Assembly (NCBI GenBank): GCA_051881575.1
Contig: JBJEQD010000105.1
Location: 4,316 to 68,315, forward strand
Reading direction: 5' to 3'
DNA from: Acutalibacteraceae bacterium
GTDB taxonomy: Bacteria; Bacillota; Clostridia; Oscillospirales; Acutalibacteraceae
DNA: 64,000 nt
Part shown: in pieces, positions 13,380 through 20,972 of the stretch
Position numbering within the stretch: the first letter of the stretch is position 1
How the letters are laid out: the number at the start of each line of letters is the position of its first letter
Position numbers and translations under genes: made by a program
The notes under the pieces: generated by a model
Seen by the model: only the letters and a program-made list of their open reading frames with translations
Database searches by the model: none
Told to the model about the DNA's origin: nothing

Positions 13380-13913
13380 CTATTTCTTTATTCCAAAGAA
13401 CGAACCGACGGGATCCTCAAAAAGAGGGATTTTCGGCTGAACAAATGTCAGAATAACAAAAGCAAGTGCAAAGATACACAGAATGACAACAGCCGTCACA
13501 TTCAAAGCACACGGAACGGGTTTTCGGCTCATAATTCGGGTTTCAAGAAGATACGCCGCAGCGGCAGCCAACAGGAAGGTTAATATATTAAACCAACCCG
13601 GCGCATTTCCGAAAGCGCCGACGCAGGTGTAATACAGCACGGGTATCAGCACAAGCCCGAGGCTTATTCCCGCAAGCTTTGAAGCCCCGAAGTTTTCATT
13701 TTTTCTGCCGATAAAAAGGTATTCAACGAATGCAAAAACAAACATCGGGAAAAACAGCAGTTTCATGTGCTCCCATGTTGACTCATTCACCGCCGCAAAC
13801 GGTGCGGCAATGACGCTTTGATTGCTCCACCCATAGACAAAATGGAGCAGCGTTCCCGCCGTTGCCGCAAAAATAAATCCCGCAGCCTGCCACCGCTTTA
13901 ACTCTTTGCTCAA
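13380..13913 (-). CDS. DUF6512-like membrane protein
   Basis: GTLLHFVYGWS...VNESTWEHMKLLFFP pattern; several TM segments; TTG start. Confidence 0.7.
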   Translation of the reverse strand: MSKELKRWQAAGFIFAATAGTLLHFVYGWSNQSVIAAPFAAVNESTWEHMKLLFFPMFVFAFVEYLFIGRKNENFGASKLAGISLGLVLIPVLYYTCVGAFGNAPGWFNILTFLLAAAAAYLLETRIMSRKPVPCALNVTAVVILCIFALAFVILTFVQPKIPLFEDPVGSFFGIKK

Positions 13914-14307
13914 ACCCTCTGCCCCCGTTAATCATCACTTCAAGCATAAGTATATTCAATACAGATATTTATATTACCGCTGAAAAAATTATTCTGTCAT
14001 TTTCAAAGCGTTACTGTATTTCTGAAAACATATATTAGCACTTTTTGGCAAATCAAAAGAAAACAGAAAGCTTTTTATTTGTTTTTCAAAAAACTTGTTG
14101 TAAATATGCACAAAAATTTAAAAATATATGAATGAAGCTAAAAAAGAACTTATCTATATCTTATGTAGAGAGTATTACTCATATGAATGTTATCTGTTTT
14201 TCAAAAAATGTTTCATTACCTAATCTGTATTAAAACAATTGTATTCGACCGCAGTCGAATTTTATATAAATTATAAATTTTTTCTCAAAAAGAGGAGGTT
14301 TTTTTAA

Positions 14308-16293
14308 GTGAAAAAAACAACAAAAATGACTATTGCGATACTTCTAACCATCATTATGGTATTCGGTTCGTTTGGTGCTGGAAACTCTAATCTTTTTTTC
14401 AAGTTGTTTGAGATTAAAGCATCCGGAGTGCAAGCAGGTATATTTCTTTGGCCAGTACCTTCTTCTTATTCTCTGTCACAAGGCTATAGTTCTAGCCATA
14501 AAGCAATAGATATTCAGAAGTGCGCAAACCAAAATGTAATTGCATCTTATTCCGGAGTCGTGTATAAACTTGATTCCGGAACAAATAGTTCAAGTTCAAC
14601 AGATAGCTCATACGGAACAAGCATGATTATCAAGCACAATATTAATGGGAGTGTTTACTATACCCACTATGCTCATATGGTTAAAGATTCAATCCCTCAA
14701 AGGCTCCGAACAATTGGCGCAAGTGTAAGCCAAGGTGAAATCATAGGAAAAGTTGGAAATACAGGAAATGTTTCTGGATCTTCTGGATATCATTTGCATT
14801 TTTCTATTGCAGATAGCACAGGCGTATGGAACGGACGATTCAACAACACTCCAACAGATAGTAGGCACAACATAAATAGTTCTAGCGGTGTGTCATACAG
14901 ATACAGTATTGAACATGAGCACGACTTTAGTGTTTATCTGTATTACTGGGCAAAACATCCTCACTACAATGATTATAAATGCAAATACTGCGATGCTAAG
15001 CAGGAAAACAGAAATGAAACAAATTATGTTGCATCATGTGAATTGTGCAATCACACCCATAGTTATACAGCCACTTCGGCATCATCTGCCACATGTGAGT
15101 CAGGCGGATACACGACATATAACTGTTCATGCGGAGACAGTTATACAACATATACAAACGCCTTAGGCCATAACTACAGTATTTTATCATATAATGAAAA
15201 CGCACATCCTCATTATGCAGTTTACAAATGCAGCAGGTGCAGTTCAACAAAAAGGACTTCAGAAACCGGTTATCTGAAATCATGTATAGATTGTATTTTC
15301 AGCGGTAAACCGGTTTTAACAGTTACACCGGGCACAAGCAAAACAGAAACTATTTTATTGTCAAGCGTTGTAAACGGTGCCGAATATTATGAATATAATA
15401 TTAAAACTTACTACGGCGATGAAAAGGTTCTATTCAGATATAGTGATGAAGGAGAGCCGGTATCTGTCATTCTTGATTCAGGCAAATATAAAGCATATGT
15501 AGTAATTTACGATAGATTAGCGTCGTATACATTAAAAAGTGATGAAGTAATATTCACCGTTGATGGCGTCTCCGAAGAAATAAGTACAACGGCATTCCAA
15601 AACGGATATTCAATATACTTCAACGCTAACGGTGGTTATGGCGCACCGTCGTCTCAAAGCGGAAAAACCTCTTATACAATTCCGCCAACTACGCCCACAC
15701 GAAACGGATATTCATTCCTTGGCTGGTCAAAAAACAGTAGTGCTTCATCTGCAAGCTATAAAGGCGGAGACTTCATTTATCTTGAAAACGACACAACGCT
15801 TTATGCTGTTTGGGAAAAAGATGAAATCTCCGAGGAAACGACAACAGCAATCCGAAACGGATATTCAATATACTTTAACGCTAACGGTGGTTCGGGAGCA
15901 CCGTCGGCTCAAAGTGGAAAAACATCTTATACAATTCCGTCAACAACACCAACAAGAAGTGGATATACATTTCTCGGTTGGTCAGAAAACAGTTCAGCAA
16001 TTTCTGCCGGCTACAAACCCGGTGACACAATAGTGCTCTCAACCGATACAACCCTTTATGCGGTTTGGCAAAAAGCAGAAGAGCCCACTACATCACCCAG
16101 TAATACTTGCCCTAACTGCGGAGAAGAATTCACGAGTGAAGAAGAATACAATGAACATATTTCAAACTGTGACTCAAATAACGGCAATAACAACAATTCG
16201 GGTGTTAGTTTATTTGGATTGATATTAGCATTTTTTGCAAGTATTATAAGCTTTATAGGAATGGTTCTAATGTTTCCGCTTCTTCTGTTTTAA
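14308..16293 (+). CDS. Secreted/surface M23 metallopeptidase with His/Cys-rich repeats, two InlB B-type repeats and a C-terminal hydrophobic tail
   Basis: Signal peptide; HKAID, YAHM, HLHF M23 motifs; two YFNANGG...GY.FLGWS...LYAVW repeats; GTG start with SD GAGGAGG; AT-rich relative to flanks. Confidence 0.85.
   Translation: MKKTTKMTIAILLTIIMVFGSFGAGNSNLFFKLFEIKASGVQAGIFLWPVPSSYSLSQGYSSSHKAIDIQKCANQNVIASYSGVVYKLDSGTNSSSSTDSSYGTSMIIKHNINGSVYYTHYAHMVKDSIPQRLRTIGASVSQGEIIGKVGNTGNVSGSSGYHLHFSIADSTGVWNGRFNNTPTDSRHNINSSSGVSYRYSIEHEHDFSVYLYYWAKHPHYNDYKCKYCDAKQENRNETNYVASCELCNHTHSYTATSASSATCESGGYTTYNCSCGDSYTTYTNALGHNYSILSYNENAHPHYAVYKCSRCSSTKRTSETGYLKSCIDCIFSGKPVLTVTPGTSKTETILLSSVVNGAEYYEYNIKTYYGDEKVLFRYSDEGEPVSVILDSGKYKAYVVIYDRLASYTLKSDEVIFTVDGVSEEISTTAFQNGYSIYFNANGGYGAPSSQSGKTSYTIPPTTPTRNGYSFLGWSKNSSASSASYKGGDFIYLENDTTLYAVWEKDEISEETTTAIRNGYSIYFNANGGSGAPSAQSGKTSYTIPSTTPTRSGYTFLGWSENSSAISAGYKPGDTIVLSTDTTLYAVWQKAEEPTTSPSNTCPNCGEEFTSEEEYNEHISNCDSNNGNNNNSGVSLFGLILAFFASIISFIGMVLMFPLLLF
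15568..16074 (+). repeat. Intragenic tandem duplication (about 258-nt period) encoding InlB B-repeats
   Basis: AAACGGATATTCAATATACTT(C/T)AACGCTAACGGTGGTT occurs in both copies. Confidence 0.85.
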
Positions 16294-16399
16294 TAGGTAA
16301 ACTTAGTTTATTTATAACAAATCAAAAAATTTATCTACACTATTCTGAACGTTTTTTGATAACAAAACTTAGCAAACAAGCCACCAATTGTAGCTTACT

Positions 16400-16446
16400 A
16401 CTTGCACCGCCGTGAATACCATTCGGTAAACGGCGGTGCAATTTTT
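16400..16446 (+). terminator. Terminator after the M23 gene
   Basis: TTGCACCGCCGT...ACGGCGGTGCAA stem followed by TTTTT. Confidence 0.7.
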
Positions 16447-16511
16447 AAGGGCTAATCCGTGTGCTCGCCAGCCATTATTTGCATAGAATTGTTGATATAT
16501 AACGATTTTTT

Positions 16512-17018
16512 GTAGGGAACGCCGTCCTCGGCGTTCCGTGGGGTTTGGTGCGTTTCACGGACAACCGCAAGGCTACGGATTGATTTCAATTTGTAGCGGA
16601 CGATGCTCACATCGTCCAAAATGCAGAAATAACGGATTTTTCAGGATTCAAGGTAGGGCGGGGGCTCGCTCCCGCCGTTTTGGATTTATAAAGAATATAT
16701 CATTTATAGAAAAATTTAACAAATTATTCGCCCATGGCGAATTGGTTCGTCGGGGACGCCGAACCCTACGGATTTTACCGTTAGCAGTTCATATTTCCCG
16801 GAACGCTGAGGACAGCGTTCCCTACGAGAAAATCGTACTGATATCAGGCGTTTTCAAGCAAAAACCGTAGGGGACGGGTCGCCTGTCCCGCATAAAAAAC
16901 CGTTTCAACGGATTTTAAAAATTTGTGCTTTTTCAAGCGGGAGAACGCAGTTCTCCCCTACGGTGTTGCCGAGGTTTTTCTGCTGTTTTCCCGGAACGCC
17001 GGGGACGGCGTTCCCTAC
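16512..17018. repeat. Cluster of nine GTAG-type REP hairpins (REPIN/BIME-like)
   Basis: GTAG+hairpin at 16512, 16593, 16653, 16867; hairpin+CTAC ending at 16576, 16769, 16825, 16961, 17018; first and last units are 26-bp inverted copies (1 mismatch). Confidence 0.85.
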
Positions 17019-17068
17019 TGAATTTTGTGCTTTTGGGGATAATATCGTTTATCCGTAAGTTAATCAAT

Positions 17069-17305
17069 CCTCCGTCATTTGCTTCGCAAATGCCACGCTG
17101 ACGGCGCCGTCCCCCTTTGTCTGCTTCGCAGACATTTCCCCCACACTGCGGGGGAATCGACCTTTTCAAAGGAGGCCAACGAAGCAGTAACCTACTGCAT
17201 AGGCTCCTTTGGCAACTCCCTCCGTCACGGCTGCCGCCTCGGTCGGTGCTTCTGAGCTTTCGCTCAGAGGTTGCCACCGGCAACCCGCACCCTCAAGAGG
17301 GAGGC
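17069..17305. repeat. Two tandem CC(C)TCCGTCA...hairpin...GAGGC cruciform repeats, each with an inner hairpin module
   Basis: Shared start CCTCCGTCA (17069, 17219) and end GGAGGC; internal hairpins at 17076-92, 17118-34, 17136-56, 17251-68, 17270-84. Confidence 0.65.
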
Positions 17306-17396
17306 AGATCGCTGCCCGTAGGGCTGAGGATTGGAAAGGACGCTGAATAATCAAGGTTCACGGTCACACAGTTCGTTCCGCTGAAAAGCGAAATGC

Positions 17397-17507
17397 AATT
17401 CGTTCTTTCATATGCCGCAGGCATATTTCATATTTGCGAAGCAAATATTTCACAGCAAAGCTATTTCACTCGTTCCGAAGGAACGAATTTATTGAAAAAG
17501 CACTTCC
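17397..17507. repeat. TTTCA-punctuated array of short triloop hairpins
   Basis: TTTCA-[TATGCC GCA GGCATA]-TTTCA-[TATTTGC GAA GCAAATA]-TTTCA-[AGC AAA GCT]-TTTCA-[TCGTTCC GAA GGAACGA]. Confidence 0.75.
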
Positions 17508-17601
17508 ATTTTTTCTTTGCCCGAAGGGGAATTTACTATGCGGTAATTTCTTCTCGCCCTCTGCTCTTTTTTCTAAATAGTCTTATGTTTTTGTAGGTAT
17601 G

Positions 17602-18519
17602 TTATCTTTCAATAGACCAAAGAATCATATCTATTTTTCTTGGTGTCCAAAAATCTGTATTGAATTTATGATTTAACTCATCAGCTTTTTCTCTCATTAT
17701 TTCTATCAAAATGACACCGTCGCTTTTTTTCAAGGAATTGGGATTCATTTTATGCAGTTCATTGCAATATTTGGAGATATATAATTCTTTAAGTCGTTTT
17801 GCAACAAATTGGTCTATTGTTCCGAATTTTTGAGGAAAAATCACCGCTAATAATCCGCTTGCACCCGCTGCGCCAAGTCCGTGTATCTTGGTTGCCAAAT
17901 CTAAGCATTGTTCAATATCGTTATGATTCATTGTAAATATCTGAATTTGAATTTCGGCAAGTAAAGATAAGTTATCTTCGTCAACATATTTTTTTAATGC
18001 TTTTCTCGTTGTTGCCAAACGATTTTTTTGCGTGTATTTCCATACAAAATATTTGTCGTATAAGAAATCATAAAAATCTGTAACTGATAAAGCTTTTATT
18101 TCGTCTGCATTAAGATTTTCAATATATTTTTCTATTGCAATTTGTTCTTCCTTTAAAATTTCGTAATAATGGTTTAGTGCTCTTTCCCAATCCTCTTTTG
18201 AACCGTTTTCCCATAGAAATTTGAGAGATTTTTCTTCTGTAGCATAGCTTTCAAAATTTTTTATTGTCCTATTATCATTATCAATAAGACTTTGCTTTTT
18301 TTCATAATAACACACTTCGTCTGTATTTAATTGCATTGATACTTCATCAAATTTAATTTCATCTATACCATTATTTTTGGATTCGTTTTTGAAGTTTATA
18401 ATTCTTCCTGCTTTATAGCTTTTATGTAGCTTAACTATCAAAAAAATAACTGCCAAGCCAACAAACGCAATAAGAATATAGCTCCCGATTTCTTCAAAAA
18501 GACTATCAAGAATTGTCAT
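17602..18519 (-). CDS. Hypothetical protein: N-terminal TM helix + C-terminal HhH-GPD-like (DNA glycosylase-like) domain
   Basis: TM segment at residues ~12-30; IHGLGAAGASGLL hairpin motif, GTIDQFV acidic motif and terminal IDMILW; strongly AT-rich; SD GAGGTG. Confidence 0.55.
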   Translation of the reverse strand: MTILDSLFEEIGSYILIAFVGLAVIFLIVKLHKSYKAGRIINFKNESKNNGIDEIKFDEVSMQLNTDEVCYYEKKQSLIDNDNRTIKNFESYATEEKSLKFLWENGSKEDWERALNHYYEILKEEQIAIEKYIENLNADEIKALSVTDFYDFLYDKYFVWKYTQKNRLATTRKALKKYVDEDNLSLLAEIQIQIFTMNHNDIEQCLDLATKIHGLGAAGASGLLAVIFPQKFGTIDQFVAKRLKELYISKYCNELHKMNPNSLKKSDGVILIEIMREKADELNHKFNTDFWTPRKIDMILWSIER

Positions 18520-18667
18520 ATATAATGCACCTCAAAATCTTGCTTTAAATAATTGTATCATAAAAAACAATGTTTGTCTATTTTATAAAAAATAATTTAT
18601 AATTAAGAATTTTCACACAGTATGGATGTTTGAAAATCCTCGAAACATCGGTATTTAAGTAATAAAA

Positions 18668-18743
18668 AATTCGTTTTTCAAATTTGCAAAACAGCTGTTT
18701 CTCTTGTTCTGCAAGGAACGAATTTCATTGAAAAAGCACTTCC
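18668..18743. repeat. Eroded second copy of the TTTCA hairpin array
   Basis: AAGGAACGAATTT(C)ATTGAAAAAGCACTTCC at 18713-18743 matches 17478-17507 with one indel; AATTCGTT start also shared. Confidence 0.75.
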
Positions 18744-18759
18744 GAAGAAGTGCTTTTTC
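18730..18759 (-). terminator. Intrinsic terminator after the tRNA 3' copy
   Basis: GAAAAAGCACTTC-TTCG-GAAGTGCTTTTTC on the minus strand. Confidence 0.75.
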
Positions 18760-18868
18760 TTGGCCCGCCCGAAGGGATTCGATTCGCACGCCTGCGGGCG
18801 TTTGGTCGCTCGCGGTCACAACGCTCCACCGGAGCGTTGCTCTGTGCCGCTCGTCCTTCGAATCCCTT
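18760..18868 (-). repeat. Duplicated tRNA-Arg 3' end with inverted T-arm and 74-bp insert
   Basis: 18760-18782 identical to 18915-18937 (23 bp); AAGGGATTCGA...TCGAATCCCTT inverted arms. Confidence 0.85.
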
Positions 18869-18873
18869 ATCAT

Positions 18874-18915
18874 GCAAAAAACCGACAGGTCAGTCTTCGA
18901 CTGCCCTGCCGGTTT
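18874..18915 (-). terminator. tRNA-Arg terminator
   Basis: AAACCGGCAGG-GCAGTC-GAA-GACTG-A-CCTGTCGG-TTTTTT on the minus strand. Confidence 0.7.
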
Positions 18916-18992
18916 TGGCCCGCCCGAAGGGATTCGAACCCCCGATCTTCAGAATCGGAATCTGCTGCGTTATCCAACTGCGCCACGAGCGG
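18916..18992 (-). tRNA. tRNA-Arg (anticodon CCG)
   Basis: Cloverleaf CCGCTCG...CGGGCGG-G-CCA; anticodon loop TT-CCG-AT; T-loop TTCGAAT; encoded CCA; promoter TTGACT-17-TATATT at 19041-19013. Confidence 0.95.
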
Positions 18993-19041
18993 AAATGTTA
19001 AGTTACTATGAGAATATACACCAAATCGGGTCAAAAGTCAA

Positions 19042-19092: not shown

Positions 19093-20112
19093 TTATTTGA
19101 TTTTTTCGATAACCTCGCCAGAGGTCGGCTTGGTTTTGTCGATGAACTCCTGAACAGCCTGAGCCGAGGGCATTGCTGCGGAACAGCTGTGAGCCGAAAC
19201 AAGCATTGAAGCCGAAGCCGTTGCAAATTCAAGCGCATCGGGAACGCTCTTGCCGTTCAGCAGAGAATAAATGAACGCCGATGCGTATCCGTCGCCGCCG
19301 CCGAAGCCTTTGAGCATCTTAACGGGGAACGGTTTAACCTTATATGCCGAGCCGTCGTTCAGGTAGGCAACGGAGCCTTCCTTGCCGTGCTTGATAATTA
19401 CAATCTTATTGCCGTAAGAGAACCAACGCTTTGCGGATTCTTCATCGTCGGCGCAAACACCCTCGATAGCTTCCGTGAGGTCAAACTCCTCTCTTGAGCC
19501 GAGGATAATATCGCTGTTTTTGGCGGCGATTGAATAATAAATCGAAATCTCGTCCTTATTCTTCCATGTGTAGCTTCTGTAATCGATATCAAAGATAACG
19601 ACAACGCCGTTTTTCTTCGCAAGGAAAAGAGTTTTGAGAGCCGCTTCTCTTGACGGGCTTGTGCAGAGAGCCGTGCCCGAAATAACAACAGCCTTTGCGG
19701 TCTTTATGTATTCCTCGTCAACATCGTCAACGCAGACCTGCAAATCCGCAACGCCGTCACGGTACATAAGAATACTGCTCTGAGTGGGGCTGAGAATTTC
19801 GGTAAAGGTCAGGCCAAGCTTTTCGCCGTTTTCGCATCTGAAAACATGAGAAACATCAATGCCGTCAGCCTTGAAATAATTCTCAACATAATCGCCGAAC
19901 TGATCGTCGGATACCCTTGCGATAAAGCCGCACTTTGCGCCGAGCCTTGCAAGACCGACTGCAATATTTGCGGGCGAACCGCCGACATATTTATTGAAAT
20001 TACTGCTCTGAGAAAGCGGCATATTCATATCGGTGGGGTTAAAATCGATTGCGATTCTGCCGATGGGGATAACATCCAAAGGCTTGGTTTTGTCAAATTC
20101 AATATAACTCAT
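19093..20112 (-). CDS. iolC: 5-dehydro-2-deoxygluconokinase (PfkB family)
   Basis: IGRIAIDFN...KYVGGSPANIAVGLARLG, FDIDYR, GFGGGDGYASAF are IolC-type motifs. Confidence 0.88.
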   Translation of the reverse strand: MSYIEFDKTKPLDVIPIGRIAIDFNPTDMNMPLSQSSNFNKYVGGSPANIAVGLARLGAKCGFIARVSDDQFGDYVENYFKADGIDVSHVFRCENGEKLGLTFTEILSPTQSSILMYRDGVADLQVCVDDVDEEYIKTAKAVVISGTALCTSPSREAALKTLFLAKKNGVVVIFDIDYRSYTWKNKDEISIYYSIAAKNSDIILGSREEFDLTEAIEGVCADDEESAKRWFSYGNKIVIIKHGKEGSVAYLNDGSAYKVKPFPVKMLKGFGGGDGYASAFIYSLLNGKSVPDALEFATASASMLVSAHSCSAAMPSAQAVQEFIDKTKPTSGEVIEKIK

Positions 20113-20126
20113 TTCGTTTCTTCCTT

Positions 20127-20972
20127 TCATGCTTTTCCGGCACAGCCGAATATTTCAATATGTCTGAGCGCATTTCTGTATGCGCCCTCAACCTCGGCGG
20201 TCTGCAAATCATAATAGCCTTTTATGCTCTGAGCGTCATAAGCCGCTCTTGCGCTCTGCTCAACGCTGTCAAAGGTTGCGGTTGCAATATTAATCTTGCT
20301 GATTCCGAGCTTTATGCATTTTCTGAAATCATCGGGGAGGATTCCCGTTCCGCCGTGGAGAACGAGCGGGGCTTTGACCAAAGCCGCCGTTTCTTCAAGA
20401 ATATCAAAGCGGAGCTTCGGCGCTTGCTTATAATTTCCGTGGGCATTGCCGATTGCAACGGCAAGAGCGTCAACGCCTGTTTTTTCGCTGAATTCAAGCG
20501 CCTGTTTGGGCGAAGTGCAGTTAATTGCAATGTCTTCGCTGCCGTCCTCGCTTCCGCCGACGCAGCCTATTTCGCCCTCGCAGTCCGCTCCGTATTCGGC
20601 GGCAAGCTGTTTCACCGAAGCGGTAACGGCTGAATTTTCTTCAAACGGAAGATGAGAGCCGTCAAACATAACGCTCGTAAAGCCGATGTCAAGCGCCTGC
20701 TTTATTTTTTCCGTAGTTTTGCCGTGGTCAAAATGAACGGCAACCGGCATCGGGCTGTTCTTTGCGGCGGCAACCATCAGCGGGCCGATAAGCTCCAGCG
20801 GCGAATGGTTCAGCCTTACCTCGGCAATCTGAATGATTGCCGGGCTTTTTGTTTCTTCAACCGCTTTGAGAACGCCGAGAACCATTTCCATATTTGCAAC
20901 GCTGAAGCTGCCGACGGCATAGCCCTCTTTCTTTGCCTTTTCCAAAAGCGGTTTCATGTTAACAAGAGGCAT
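20127..20972 (-). CDS. Class II fructose-bisphosphate-type aldolase (IolJ-like by context)
   Basis: VHFDHG, SVMFDGS, AVAIGNAHG, LVLHGGTG, KINIAT; adjacent to iolC. Confidence 0.88.
   Translation of the reverse strand: MPLVNMKPLLEKAKKEGYAVGSFSVANMEMVLGVLKAVEETKSPAIIQIAEVRLNHSPLELIGPLMVAAAKNSPMPVAVHFDHGKTTEKIKQALDIGFTSVMFDGSHLPFEENSAVTASVKQLAAEYGADCEGEIGCVGGSEDGSEDIAINCTSPKQALEFSEKTGVDALAVAIGNAHGNYKQAPKLRFDILEETAALVKAPLVLHGGTGILPDDFRKCIKLGISKINIATATFDSVEQSARAAYDAQSIKGYYDLQTAEVEGAYRNALRHIEIFGCAGKA

What the first reader, a model, noticed from the sequence alone, without database searches (positions are those of the whole stretch)
17478..18782. Single gene bracketed by direct repeats that include the tRNA-side terminator: a cassette without an integrase
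Seen: AAGGAACGAATTT(C)ATTGAAAAAGCACTTCC at 17478 and 18713. The right copy continues into a full terminator and the tRNA 3' copy; the left copy has lost half the terminator but is followed by TTTTTCTT-GCCCGAAGGG (17519-28), a 10-bp match to the tRNA end. Inference: the ~1.2-kb segment carrying the 305-aa gene entered by recombination at, or duplication of, the tRNA-tail/array unit and could be excised or swapped by the same route.
Basis: partly seen in the sequence, partly recalled or inferred. Interest (0 to 1): 0.62.

Follow-up and report, generated by a model that had tools for sequence, protein, structure and literature searches.

The report
Single-gene cassette behind tRNA-Arg
A foreign, AT-rich gene for a membrane-anchored DNA-glycosylase-like protein sits just behind a tRNA-Arg gene between two diverged copies of a "tRNA tail + terminator + Gut-1 hairpin array" unit; related bacteria have the same site empty or hold other small genes between such units behind other tRNAs, so it is a real integrase-free insertion of a recurrent but poorly understood kind.

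Summary
The repeats are about 77 and 90 nt, not 30. Each is one unit made of a tRNA-Arg 3' tail, an intrinsic terminator and the start of a Gut-1 (RF01706) hairpin array.

- **Right (R) unit:** intact terminator, with a short two-hairpin array.
- **Left (L) unit:** broken terminator, followed by a full Gut-1.

The 1.2-kb segment between them is foreign.
- It has 27-33% G+C, against about 48% in the flanks.
- It carries its own promoter.
- The gene is found in only 2 of 121 genomes sampled from the genus and in none from 149 other genera of the family.
- Three relatives have tail, terminator and Gut-1 contiguous, which is the empty site.

The same architecture, with other cargo, occurs behind tRNA-Cys in other species. 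Cargo-less tandem units also exist. An integrase-bearing element at tRNA-Arg(ACG) in this genome makes repeats of tail plus terminator too.

I read it as a relic or low-activity cassette, integrated by recombination within the tail-terminator-array unit with the recombinase, if any, acting in trans.

The parts
18916..18992 (-). tRNA-Arg(CCG), intact. Its sigma-70-like promoter lies at 19013-19041.
   Evidence: ARAGORN; Rfam tRNA, 51.9 bits; promoter scan.
18875..18915 (-). Terminator 1, directly after the tRNA CCA end.
   Evidence: Sequence. Compensatory stem changes between G000 and G246.
18783..18870 (-). Element A: a roughly 74-nt multi-copy core with an inverted arm AAGGGATTCGA that pairs with the T-loop/T-stem part of the following tail copy.
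   Evidence: Many copies in relatives. In this genome, copies lie behind tRNA-Ser(cga) and tRNA-Ser(gga) and on C50. The two complete copies (C29, C50) are each followed by a tRNA tail; the C117 copy is cut short. The arms match the tRNA-Leu T-arm in G003.
18760..18782 (-). R unit, part 1: exact 23-nt copy of the tRNA-Arg 3' end (T-loop to CCA).
   Evidence: the repeat finder family D4, 100% identity.
18731..18758 (-). R unit, part 2: intact intrinsic terminator (AAAAAGCACUUC-UUCG-GAAGUGCUUUUU).
   Evidence: Fold. The same terminator follows tRNA-Arg or its tail copy in L047, L048 and L050.
18668..18730 (-). R unit, part 3: short Gut-1-like array with hairpin 1, a divergent hairpin 2 and the closing stem AAAUUCGUU/AACGAAUUU. 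Hairpins 3-4 are absent.
   Evidence: Alignment to the L unit and the empty-site units; fold. Rfam Gut-1 scores only 17.9 bits, below the cut-off.
18552..18580 (-). Promoter of the cargo gene (TAGACA-17-TACAAT with an extended TG).
   Evidence: Promoter scan. Homologous to the promoter of the closest outside homologue, L090.
17602..18519 (-). Cargo gene, 305 aa: N-terminal transmembrane helix, disordered linker and a conserved, roughly 210-aa all-helical C-domain with a fold like HhH-GPD/Ogg glycosylases.
   Evidence: ORF and translation. No Pfam, PADLOC or NCBIfam hit. 623 homologues with varied N-termini. AlphaFold2 model, mean pLDDT 82. Foldseek top hits are Ogg2, Ogg and EndoIII (probability 0.99, E = 0.06, TM 0.31-0.43). 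41 invariant residues, including G214-L215-G216 and D236.
17532..17601 (-). Cargo 3' flank, identical (0 differences in 70 nt) in the two carriers.
   Evidence: Pairwise alignment of G000 and G246.
17519..17531 (-). L unit, part 1: remnant of the tRNA tail. G000 has CCCCTTCGGGC; G246 keeps CCCCTTCGGGCGGG.
17494..17518 (-). L unit, part 2: A-tract plus only the 3' arm and T-tract of the terminator. The 5' arm and loop are missing.
   Evidence: Alignment. In G246 the whole terminator is missing instead.
17397..17495 (-). L unit, part 3: full Gut-1 array (four hairpins separated by GUGAAAU linkers, plus the closing stem). It is orthologous to the array at the empty sites.
   Evidence: Rfam RF01706, 53.2 bits against a cut-off of 50, at 17420-17495; multiple alignment; fold.
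16446..17366 (.). REP-type hairpin array, present in hundreds of copies genome-wide. It forms the distal flank, which L050 and L048 share.
   Evidence: BLAST against the own genome; comparison with L048 and L050.

Best explanation
The 3' flank of tRNA-Arg(CCG) is a stacking site for small insertions. The resident state is tRNA (or a displaced tail copy), then terminator, then Gut-1 hairpin array, then REP array.

A roughly 1.2-kb piece entered on the tRNA side of that resident unit. It consists of its own copy of the tail-terminator-short Gut-1 'head' (R unit), a promoter, and a gene from a low-G+C donor. The resident unit (L unit) was pushed distally. The flanking 'direct repeats' are therefore the heads of two successive units.

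The joint was made by recombination inside the tail-terminator-array unit. This was either site-specific recombination by a recombinase acting in trans, or a single crossover of a circular intermediate that carried a homologous unit. These steps are inferred, not shown.

The R terminator insulates the cargo from the tRNA transcript, and the cargo is read from its own promoter. The distal terminator has since been damaged, or was scarred at the joint, in a different way in each of the two carriers. Today the cassette is probably fixed or only rarely mobile.

The cargo is most likely a membrane-tethered DNA-binding or base-excising protein of an accessory, possibly anti-phage, family.
For: **It is an insertion.**
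- G+C is 27-33% against about 48% in the flanks.
- The gene occurs in 2 of 121 genomes sampled from the genus and in none from 149 other genera of the family.
- At the empty sites L050, L047 and L048, tail, full terminator and the four-hairpin Gut-1 are contiguous. L050 and L048 share the REP flank; L050 and L047 share the tRNA/pfkB flank.
- The L unit aligns with the empty-site units along its whole length. The R unit matches only through hairpin 1 and then diverges.
- The promoter and gene are 69-83% identical to a copy in an AT-rich contig.

**Precedent in the same genome.**
- tRNA-Arg(ACG) on C63 is followed by a tyrosine integrase, an HTH protein, a sigma factor and a Rep protein.
- Distal copies of its 3' part on C50 and C92 carry the same terminator, so tail-plus-terminator repeats accompany tRNA-targeted elements here. 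The copy on C55 has a different terminator.

**The design recurs.**
- G017 tRNA-Cys: a GNAT gene between 303-nt units, 92% identical.
- G005 tRNA-Cys: 23S_rRNA_IVP plus GNAT between 132-nt units, 91% identical.
- G277 tRNA-Cys: 23S_rRNA_IVP plus GNAT in front of what I read as a decayed tail plus unit.
- Cargo-less tandem units occur in G018 (including a 25-nt tail), G003, G279 and G225.

**The site is variable among close lineages.** L094 has an identical PfkB protein but unrelated sequence from the tRNA end onwards.

**The cassette looks younger than its flanks.** Its dS between the two carriers is 0.024, against 0.11-0.20 for pfkB, the aldolase gene and yibE. The cassette's non-coding parts differ at 7 of 284 positions.
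Against: - There is no recombinase in or next to the segment. None was found in the tRNA-Arg(CCG) flanks of 13 relatives.
- No circle or same-strain empty allele was seen. All seven sequences carrying the gene are filled.
- The junction positions are not uniform across the examples. The distal copy starts in the T-loop, in the last few nt of the tail, or in the terminator 3' arm.
- Cargo-less tandem units show that unit duplication does not need cargo.
- The low dS could be an ordinary recombination tract. Stretches of 300 nt at 99% identity also occur in the flanking core genes.
- Gut-1 copies also occur inside a prophage, away from any tRNA.
Confidence: 0.6

Rival explanations
1. Local tandem duplication first, gene later. 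The resident tail-terminator-Gut-1 unit duplicated by slippage or unequal crossing-over, as in the cargo-less tandems. A foreign promoter and gene then landed between the two copies by illegitimate recombination.
For: - Tandem units without cargo behind tRNA-Ala (G018; 252 nt, 95%, including 25 nt of tail), tRNA-Leu (G003) and tRNA-Cys (G279, G225).
- Hairpin 1 and the terminator of the R unit are locus-specific and about 90% identical to the resident type.
Against: - It needs two events that end exactly at unit borders in at least three independent loci.
- The R array differs from every resident array beyond hairpin 1.
- The cargo 3' flank runs into a tail-like sequence, AAATTCCCCTT, that differs from the true T-loop and is identical in both carriers.
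Confidence: 0.22
2. An active cassette system of a kind not described in the literature. The tail-terminator-Gut-1 unit would be the recombination site, comparable to attC. Single-gene cassettes would be moved in and out behind tRNA genes by a recombinase encoded elsewhere or by a hairpin-directed enzyme.
For: - The unit-cargo-unit design recurs with different cargo.
- Of the 30 best Gut-1 loci, 14 lie 30-45 nt behind a tRNA on the same strand.
- In this genome, four of the five best-scoring Gut-1 copies follow a tRNA or a cut-off tRNA 3' end; the fifth is the L unit itself.
- Near-identical modules follow different tRNAs, on C161 and C87.
- The cassette is younger than its flanks, and the two carriers have different joints.
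- Earlier notes of this scan on other genomes reached the same idea. They are leads only.
Against: - No candidate enzyme is linked to the units.
- No conserved crossover core was found at the joints.
- This copy's repeats are decayed.
- There is no evidence of excision.
Confidence: 0.15
3. Chance similarity of two hairpin-rich intergenic stretches.
For: The region is full of repeated hairpins.
Against: - No shuffle of 100 gave a match. The pair is unique in the genome.
- The order tail, terminator, array is kept in both copies and in the relatives.
Confidence: 0.02

Closest known systems
tRNA-linked genomic islands and integrative elements with tyrosine integrases (P4-type; from my own knowledge of the field)
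   Same: - It sits at the 3' end of a tRNA gene.
- It is flanked by direct repeats that contain the tRNA 3' segment starting in the T-loop.
- It has deviant G+C and a sporadic distribution, and empty sites exist in relatives.
- An intact example with tail-plus-terminator repeats exists in this genome at tRNA-Arg(ACG).
   Different: - It has no integrase.
- It is only 1.2 kb long with one gene.
- The repeat runs on through the terminator into a hairpin array.
- The distal repeat is degraded.
CIMEs, the cis-mobilisable, att-flanked elements without recombination genes described for Streptococcus thermophilus ICESt-type elements (from memory)
   Same: An att-like repeat on both sides, no recombinase of its own, and possibly dependent on an enzyme supplied in trans.
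   Different: No cognate element or integrase for tRNA-Arg(CCG) was found. Mobilisation is untested.
Integron gene cassettes (attC)
   Same: A single-gene unit joined to a structured site whose fold is conserved while its stems vary. Units can stand in tandem.
   Different: - There is no IntI, attI or Pc.
- The structured site precedes the gene.
- The cargo has its own promoter.
- The unit includes a tRNA tail and a terminator.
Gut-1 RNA motif (Rfam RF01706; Weinberg et al. 2010, PMC2864571)
   Same: The L-unit array passes the family's gathering score (53.2 against 50).
   Different: [quoted passage not shown]
- Here it is a multi-copy DNA module, mostly right behind a tRNA gene plus terminator, and it serves as the repeat that brackets cargo.
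Minimal mobile elements of Neisseria, where cassettes are exchanged by homologous recombination between conserved flanks (from memory)
   Same: Integrase-free alternative gene content in one chromosomal slot among close relatives.
   Different: The flanks here are a tRNA and repeated hairpin units rather than two conserved protein genes. Natural transformation in this lineage is unknown.

Membership tests
tRNA-targeted integrative island | Lies directly 3' of a tRNA gene | tested here: met
   The tRNA-Arg(CCG) is at 18916-18992. The cassette starts 134 nt downstream.
tRNA-targeted integrative island | Flanked by direct repeats of the tRNA 3' segment | tested here: met
   The proximal copy is an exact 23-nt match. 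The distal copy is a 10-nt remnant, 13 nt in G246.
tRNA-targeted integrative island | Encodes its own integrase | tested here: not met
   The only ORF is the 305-aa gene, which has no Pfam hit. The genome's four tyrosine recombinases lie on other contigs.
tRNA-targeted integrative island | Empty site in relatives and atypical composition | tested here: met
   Empty sites in L050, L047 and L048; G+C of 27-33%.
CIME-like cis-mobilisable element | A cognate recombinase in the cell that acts on the flanking sites | tested here: inconclusive
   The C63 integrase sits at tRNA-Arg(ACG), whose T-loop and T-stem (GGTTCGAATCCCTT) match those of tRNA-Arg(CCG). No activity or specificity test was possible.
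CIME-like cis-mobilisable element | Excision to a circle and an empty site | not testable with these tools
The assembled contigs are all filled.
Integron cassette | IntI, attI and Pc next to the array | tested here: not met
   No tyrosine recombinase lies on the window's contig C105. The neighbours are pfkB and an M23 peptidase gene.
Integron cassette | Promoterless ORF followed by attC | tested here: not met
   The gene has its own extended -10 promoter. The structured unit lies upstream of the gene.
Gut-1 RNA (RF01706) | Score at or above the Rfam gathering threshold | tested here: met
   The L unit scores 53.2 bits against a cut-off of 50. The R unit scores only 17.9 bits, which does not meet it.
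HhH-GPD DNA glycosylase (cargo) | Sequence-profile match to the family | tested here: not met
   No Pfam or NCBIfam hit. No PDB hit by sequence or by profile.
HhH-GPD DNA glycosylase (cargo) | Fold, and an HhH motif followed by a conserved Asp | tested here: inconclusive
   The best Foldseek hits are all Ogg2, Ogg, EndoIII or MutY, but weak (E of 0.06 or more, TM 0.31-0.43). G214-L215-G216 and D236 are invariant in 48 homologues. Reading these as the HhH motif and catalytic Asp is my own inference. No catalytic test was done.

The most novel reading that the evidence does not exclude
The tail-terminator-Gut-1 unit is the working recombination site of a cassette system not described in the literature. 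That system stacks single-gene cassettes directly behind tRNA genes in gut Clostridia, using an enzyme encoded elsewhere. This 305-aa gene would be a recently moved cassette whose two carriers bear independent joint scars.
Probability: 0.25. Interest if true: 0.8.

Novelty: new variant of a known kind. Interest (0 to 1): 0.55.

Why it matters
It gives a clean filled-versus-empty comparison for an integrase-free gene insertion at a tRNA flank.

It ties the orphan Rfam motif Gut-1, whose function has been unknown since 2010, to a concrete genomic role. Gut-1 appears as a repeated module behind tRNA genes and terminators that brackets small accessory genes.

If the unit proves to be a recombination site, this would be a new route of gene capture in abundant, uncultured gut Firmicutes.

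The cargo belongs to a large family that Pfam, NCBIfam and PADLOC do not recognise. The family has 623 homologues, with N-termini that include TIR, HD and cupin domains, and it deserves a test as a defence gene.

Tried and rejected
1. **Remnant of element B.** I tested whether the cargo 3' flank keeps a remnant of element B, which fills the slot in L047 and L050. The local alignment score was reached by 298 of 2000 shuffles, so this was rejected.
2. **Precise breakpoints of a 'young block'.** Divergence rises gradually beyond about 17370 and within terminator 1. The flanking core genes are themselves mosaic. No sharp site-specific breakpoint can be claimed.
3. **Integrase in relatives.** tblastn with the C63 integrase found nothing in the tRNA-Arg(CCG) flanks of 13 relatives or in the other loci tried.
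4. **Cargo on phages or plasmids.** There were no tblastn hits. Only one IMG/VR contig holds a 49%-identical relative.
5. **Homologue contexts.** The contexts examined (L027, L029) have no tRNA or Gut-1 nearby. The gene family is therefore not itself tied to the unit.
6. **A 6-kb pair of Gut-1 repeats in G027.** This turned out to lie inside a prophage (terminase, portal, capsid), so it is not a cassette.
7. **A 16.6-kb pair in G272.** This is two separate tRNA loci.
8. **Regex detection of arrays.** It was too species-specific to be useful.
10. **Contig ends as a sign of an empty allele.** The short Logan contigs end in multi-copy sequence (element A and Gut-1), so the breaks are not evidence for an empty allele.
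Full report
**1. Anatomy.**

The window is part of contig C105 of a 2.55-Mb, 164-contig assembly. The source name of a near-identical protein places it in Acutalibacteraceae.

Reading in the sense of the tRNA (minus strand), the order is:
- pfkB (19093-20130);
- tRNA-Arg(CCG) (18916-18992);
- a first terminator;
- a roughly 90-nt multi-copy element, here called A;
- an exact 23-nt copy of the tRNA 3' end (18760-18782);
- an intact terminator (18731-18758);
- a short hairpin array (18668-18730);
- a promoter (18552-18580);
- a 305-aa gene (17602-18519);
- a 10-nt remnant of the tRNA tail (17519-17528);
- half a terminator;
- a full Gut-1 RNA motif (RF01706, 53.2 bits, 17420-17495);
- a REP-type hairpin array present in hundreds of copies genome-wide.

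**2.

No shuffle of 100 gave a match, and the pair is unique in the genome.

Gapped alignment shows that the homology covers the tail, the terminator, the first two Gut-1 hairpins and the closing stem. That is roughly 17455-17531 against 18690-18779.

Both copies are therefore complete units of one type: tRNA tail, then terminator, then Gut-1 array.
- The proximal R unit has an intact terminator and a shortened two-hairpin array that still closes (-34.8 kcal/mol, z = -5.7).
- The distal L unit has lost 4 nt of the tail and the 5' arm and loop of the terminator. It keeps four hairpins.

In the close relative G246 (GCA_051881555.1, locus L023), the L unit keeps 13 nt of the tail but has lost the whole terminator. 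The ancestral L unit was therefore a full tail-terminator-array unit. The 10-nt match is a true tail remnant, not an array hairpin.

**3. It is an insertion.**

- The segment has 27-33% G+C, against about 48% around it.
- The protein was found in only two of 121 genomes sampled from the genus, G000 and G246. It was found in none from 149 other genera of the family.
- A pattern search for the repeat core found three relatives in which tail, full terminator and four-hairpin Gut-1 are contiguous.
  - L050 (JBJEQB010000016.1) shares both flanks: the REP pieces on one side, and element A, the tRNA and pfkB on the other, at about 83% identity.
  - L047 shares the tRNA/pfkB side.
  - L048 shares the REP side and upstream genes.
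- In L047 and L050 a 150-nt element, here called B, fills the slot.
- In the multiple alignment, the L unit is the orthologue of the empty-site units along its whole length. The R unit matches through hairpin 1 at about 90% and then diverges. The R unit therefore came with, or was reshaped together with, the cargo.
- The promoter and gene are 69-83% identical to a copy on a very AT-rich contig (L090). This points to a low-G+C donor.
- A lineage with an identical PfkB protein (L094, 96.9% nt identity) has unrelated sequence from the last base of the tRNA onwards. The flank is variable even among close relatives.

**4. How the repeats arise.**

This genome holds an intact example of the process.
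- tRNA-Arg(ACG) on C63 is followed by a tyrosine integrase, an HTH protein, a sigma factor and a Rep protein.
- Further copies of its 3' part lie on C50, C92 and C55. Those on C50 and C92 carry the same terminator as C63; the one on C55 has a different terminator.
- Repeats made of tRNA tail plus terminator therefore accompany tRNA-targeted elements here.

Element A is found behind tRNA-Ser(cga) and tRNA-Ser(gga), and on C50. The two complete copies (C29, C50) are followed by a tRNA tail; the C117 copy is cut short. Behind tRNA-Leu in G003, its arms match that tRNA's T-arm. tRNA-Pro(cgg) has a 33-nt repeat of T-arm plus tail, 204 nt downstream.

**5. The unit is Gut-1, and the design recurs.**

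Gut-1 is multi-copy: 8 matches in this genome and up to 39 in relatives.

I read the five best-scoring copies in this genome. One is the L unit itself. The other four follow a tRNA, or a cut-off tRNA 3' end, plus a terminator. Two near-identical modules stand behind different tRNAs, on C161 and C87.

In relatives, 14 of the 30 best loci lie 30-45 nt behind a tRNA called on the same strand. Copies inside a prophage show that the link is not absolute.

Other species show the same design.
- G017, behind tRNA-Cys: a GNAT gene between two 303-nt units, 92% identical.
- G005, behind tRNA-Cys: 23S_rRNA_IVP plus GNAT between 132-nt units, 91% identical. The distal unit again keeps only the 3' half of the terminator.
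- G277, behind tRNA-Cys: 23S_rRNA_IVP plus GNAT in front of what I read as a decayed tail copy plus unit.
- Tandem units without cargo stand behind tRNA-Ala (G018, including 25 nt of tail), tRNA-Leu (G003) and tRNA-Cys (G279, G225).

Earlier notes of this scan on other genomes describe the same 'hairpin-array head of tRNA-linked cassettes'. I reached the pattern independently and treat those notes as leads only. [quoted passage not shown]

**6. Age and mobility.**

Between G000 and G246 the cargo differs at 18 of 915 nt.

| Region | Measure |
|---|---|
| Cargo gene | dS 0.024, dN/dS about 0.8 |
| pfkB | dS 0.135 |
| Aldolase gene | dS 0.108 |
| yibE | dS 0.20 |
| Non-coding parts of the cassette | 7 differences in 284 nt |

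They fit a recent exchange of the cassette region between the two lineages. The different damage to the L unit in the two carriers could be independent joint scars or later deletions.

The flanking genes are themselves mosaic, and no sharp breakpoint can be fixed. I therefore count this as suggestive only.

The longest exact identity between the R and L units is 17 nt. From my own knowledge, that is too short for efficient RecA-dependent excision. No recombinase lies in or beside the segment. All seven sequences carrying the gene are filled.

**7. The cargo.**

The protein has an N-terminal transmembrane helix, a disordered linker and a conserved all-helical domain of about 210 aa (AlphaFold2 mean pLDDT 82).

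The best structural matches are all HhH-GPD glycosylases (Ogg2 3fhg and 3knt, Ogg 3i0x, EndoIII, MutY). They are weak: E = 0.06 or more, TM 0.31-0.43. Sequence and profile searches find no known family.

G214-L215-G216 and D236 are invariant in 48 homologues. This fits an HhH motif plus catalytic Asp, which is my own reading.

The family has 623 detected members with varied N-termini, including cupin, HD_4 and TIR_2 domains, or none. One member lies beside AbiEii, DUF6088 and RlaP genes. A defence role is plausible but untested.

**8. Verdict.**

This is a real, integrase-free, single-gene insertion at a tRNA 3' flank. It is bracketed by two successive tail-terminator-Gut-1 units.

It is closest to a degraded tRNA island or a CIME-like element. 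Its distinctive feature is that the repeated unit is the orphan Gut-1 module and that the design recurs with other cargo. The origin by insertion is well supported. The enzyme, the exact crossover point and any present-day mobility remain open.

Noticed in passing
window 17397-17495; G000 contigs C161:7997-8300, C87:7400-7712, C108:1-300, C136:12200-12514: Gut-1 (RF01706) behaves as a multi-copy DNA module. It sits directly after a tRNA CCA end plus terminator and is followed by a mirror-image array. Two near-identical modules follow different tRNAs. The literature does not mention any tRNA link.
   Followed up: partly
window 18772-18870; G000 C29:11667-11770, C50:3143-3260, C117:5584-5622; L088:1200-1300: Element A is a roughly 74-nt conserved core flanked by an inverted arm. 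The arm matches the T-loop/T-stem of whichever tRNA tail follows (Arg, Ser, and Leu in G003). It always lies after a terminator and before a tail copy. It could be a miniature tRNA-targeting element or an att arm.
   Followed up: partly
L047:1495-1650 and L050:2690-2840: Element B, about 150 nt, starts with the same inverted arm (GAAGGGATTCGAAAGG). It occupies, in relatives, the slot that holds the gene here.
   Followed up: partly
L072 (G017:C87), L075 (G005:C61), L130 (G277:C48): The slot behind tRNA-Cys holds 23S_rRNA_IVP (four-helix-bundle) and/or GNAT genes between duplicated terminator-Gut-1 units. In G277 a patatin-like gene follows the distal unit.
   Followed up: partly
G000 C63:3118-8170; C92:4973-5690; C55:4648-4665; C50:1-3260: tRNA-Arg(ACG) carries an integrase-bearing element (integrase with an HTH insert, repressor-like HTH protein, sigma factor, Rep). 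Several partial tRNA copies lie on other contigs, which suggests stacked elements. The assembly breaks prevent joining them.
   Followed up: partly
G000 C143:463-759: A 33-nt stretch of tRNA-Pro(cgg), covering the T-arm and tail, is repeated 204 nt downstream. An unrelated element of about 165 nt lies between the two copies.
   Followed up: no
window 13900-16300: This low-G+C block (23-44%) holds a 661-aa protein with M23 peptidase and Listeria-Bacteroides repeats. It is probably another acquired piece of the same variable flank. Relative L048 has about 2 kb less DNA here.
   Followed up: no
L094 (ERZ28614447 scaffold_68034), last 90 nt: This lineage has an identical PfkB protein, but its tRNA-Arg has a variant 3' end (CCCTCTGGGCGGG). 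The tRNA is followed by a different terminator and by sequence unrelated to G000.
   Followed up: partly
L092:3284-4576 and neighbours: A 430-aa homologue of the cargo lies among RlaP, HTH, metallophosphatase and DUF6088/AbiEii genes. This looks like a defence-island setting.
   Followed up: no
L009, L011, L015 (G022, G012, G007), directly after tRNA-Arg(CCG): In these species the tRNA-Arg(CCG) is followed by a terminator, long AT-rich inverted repeats and a small gene. By eye the gene resembles the 23S_rRNA_IVP four-helix-bundle proteins; I did not scan it. There is no Gut-1 unit.
   Followed up: no
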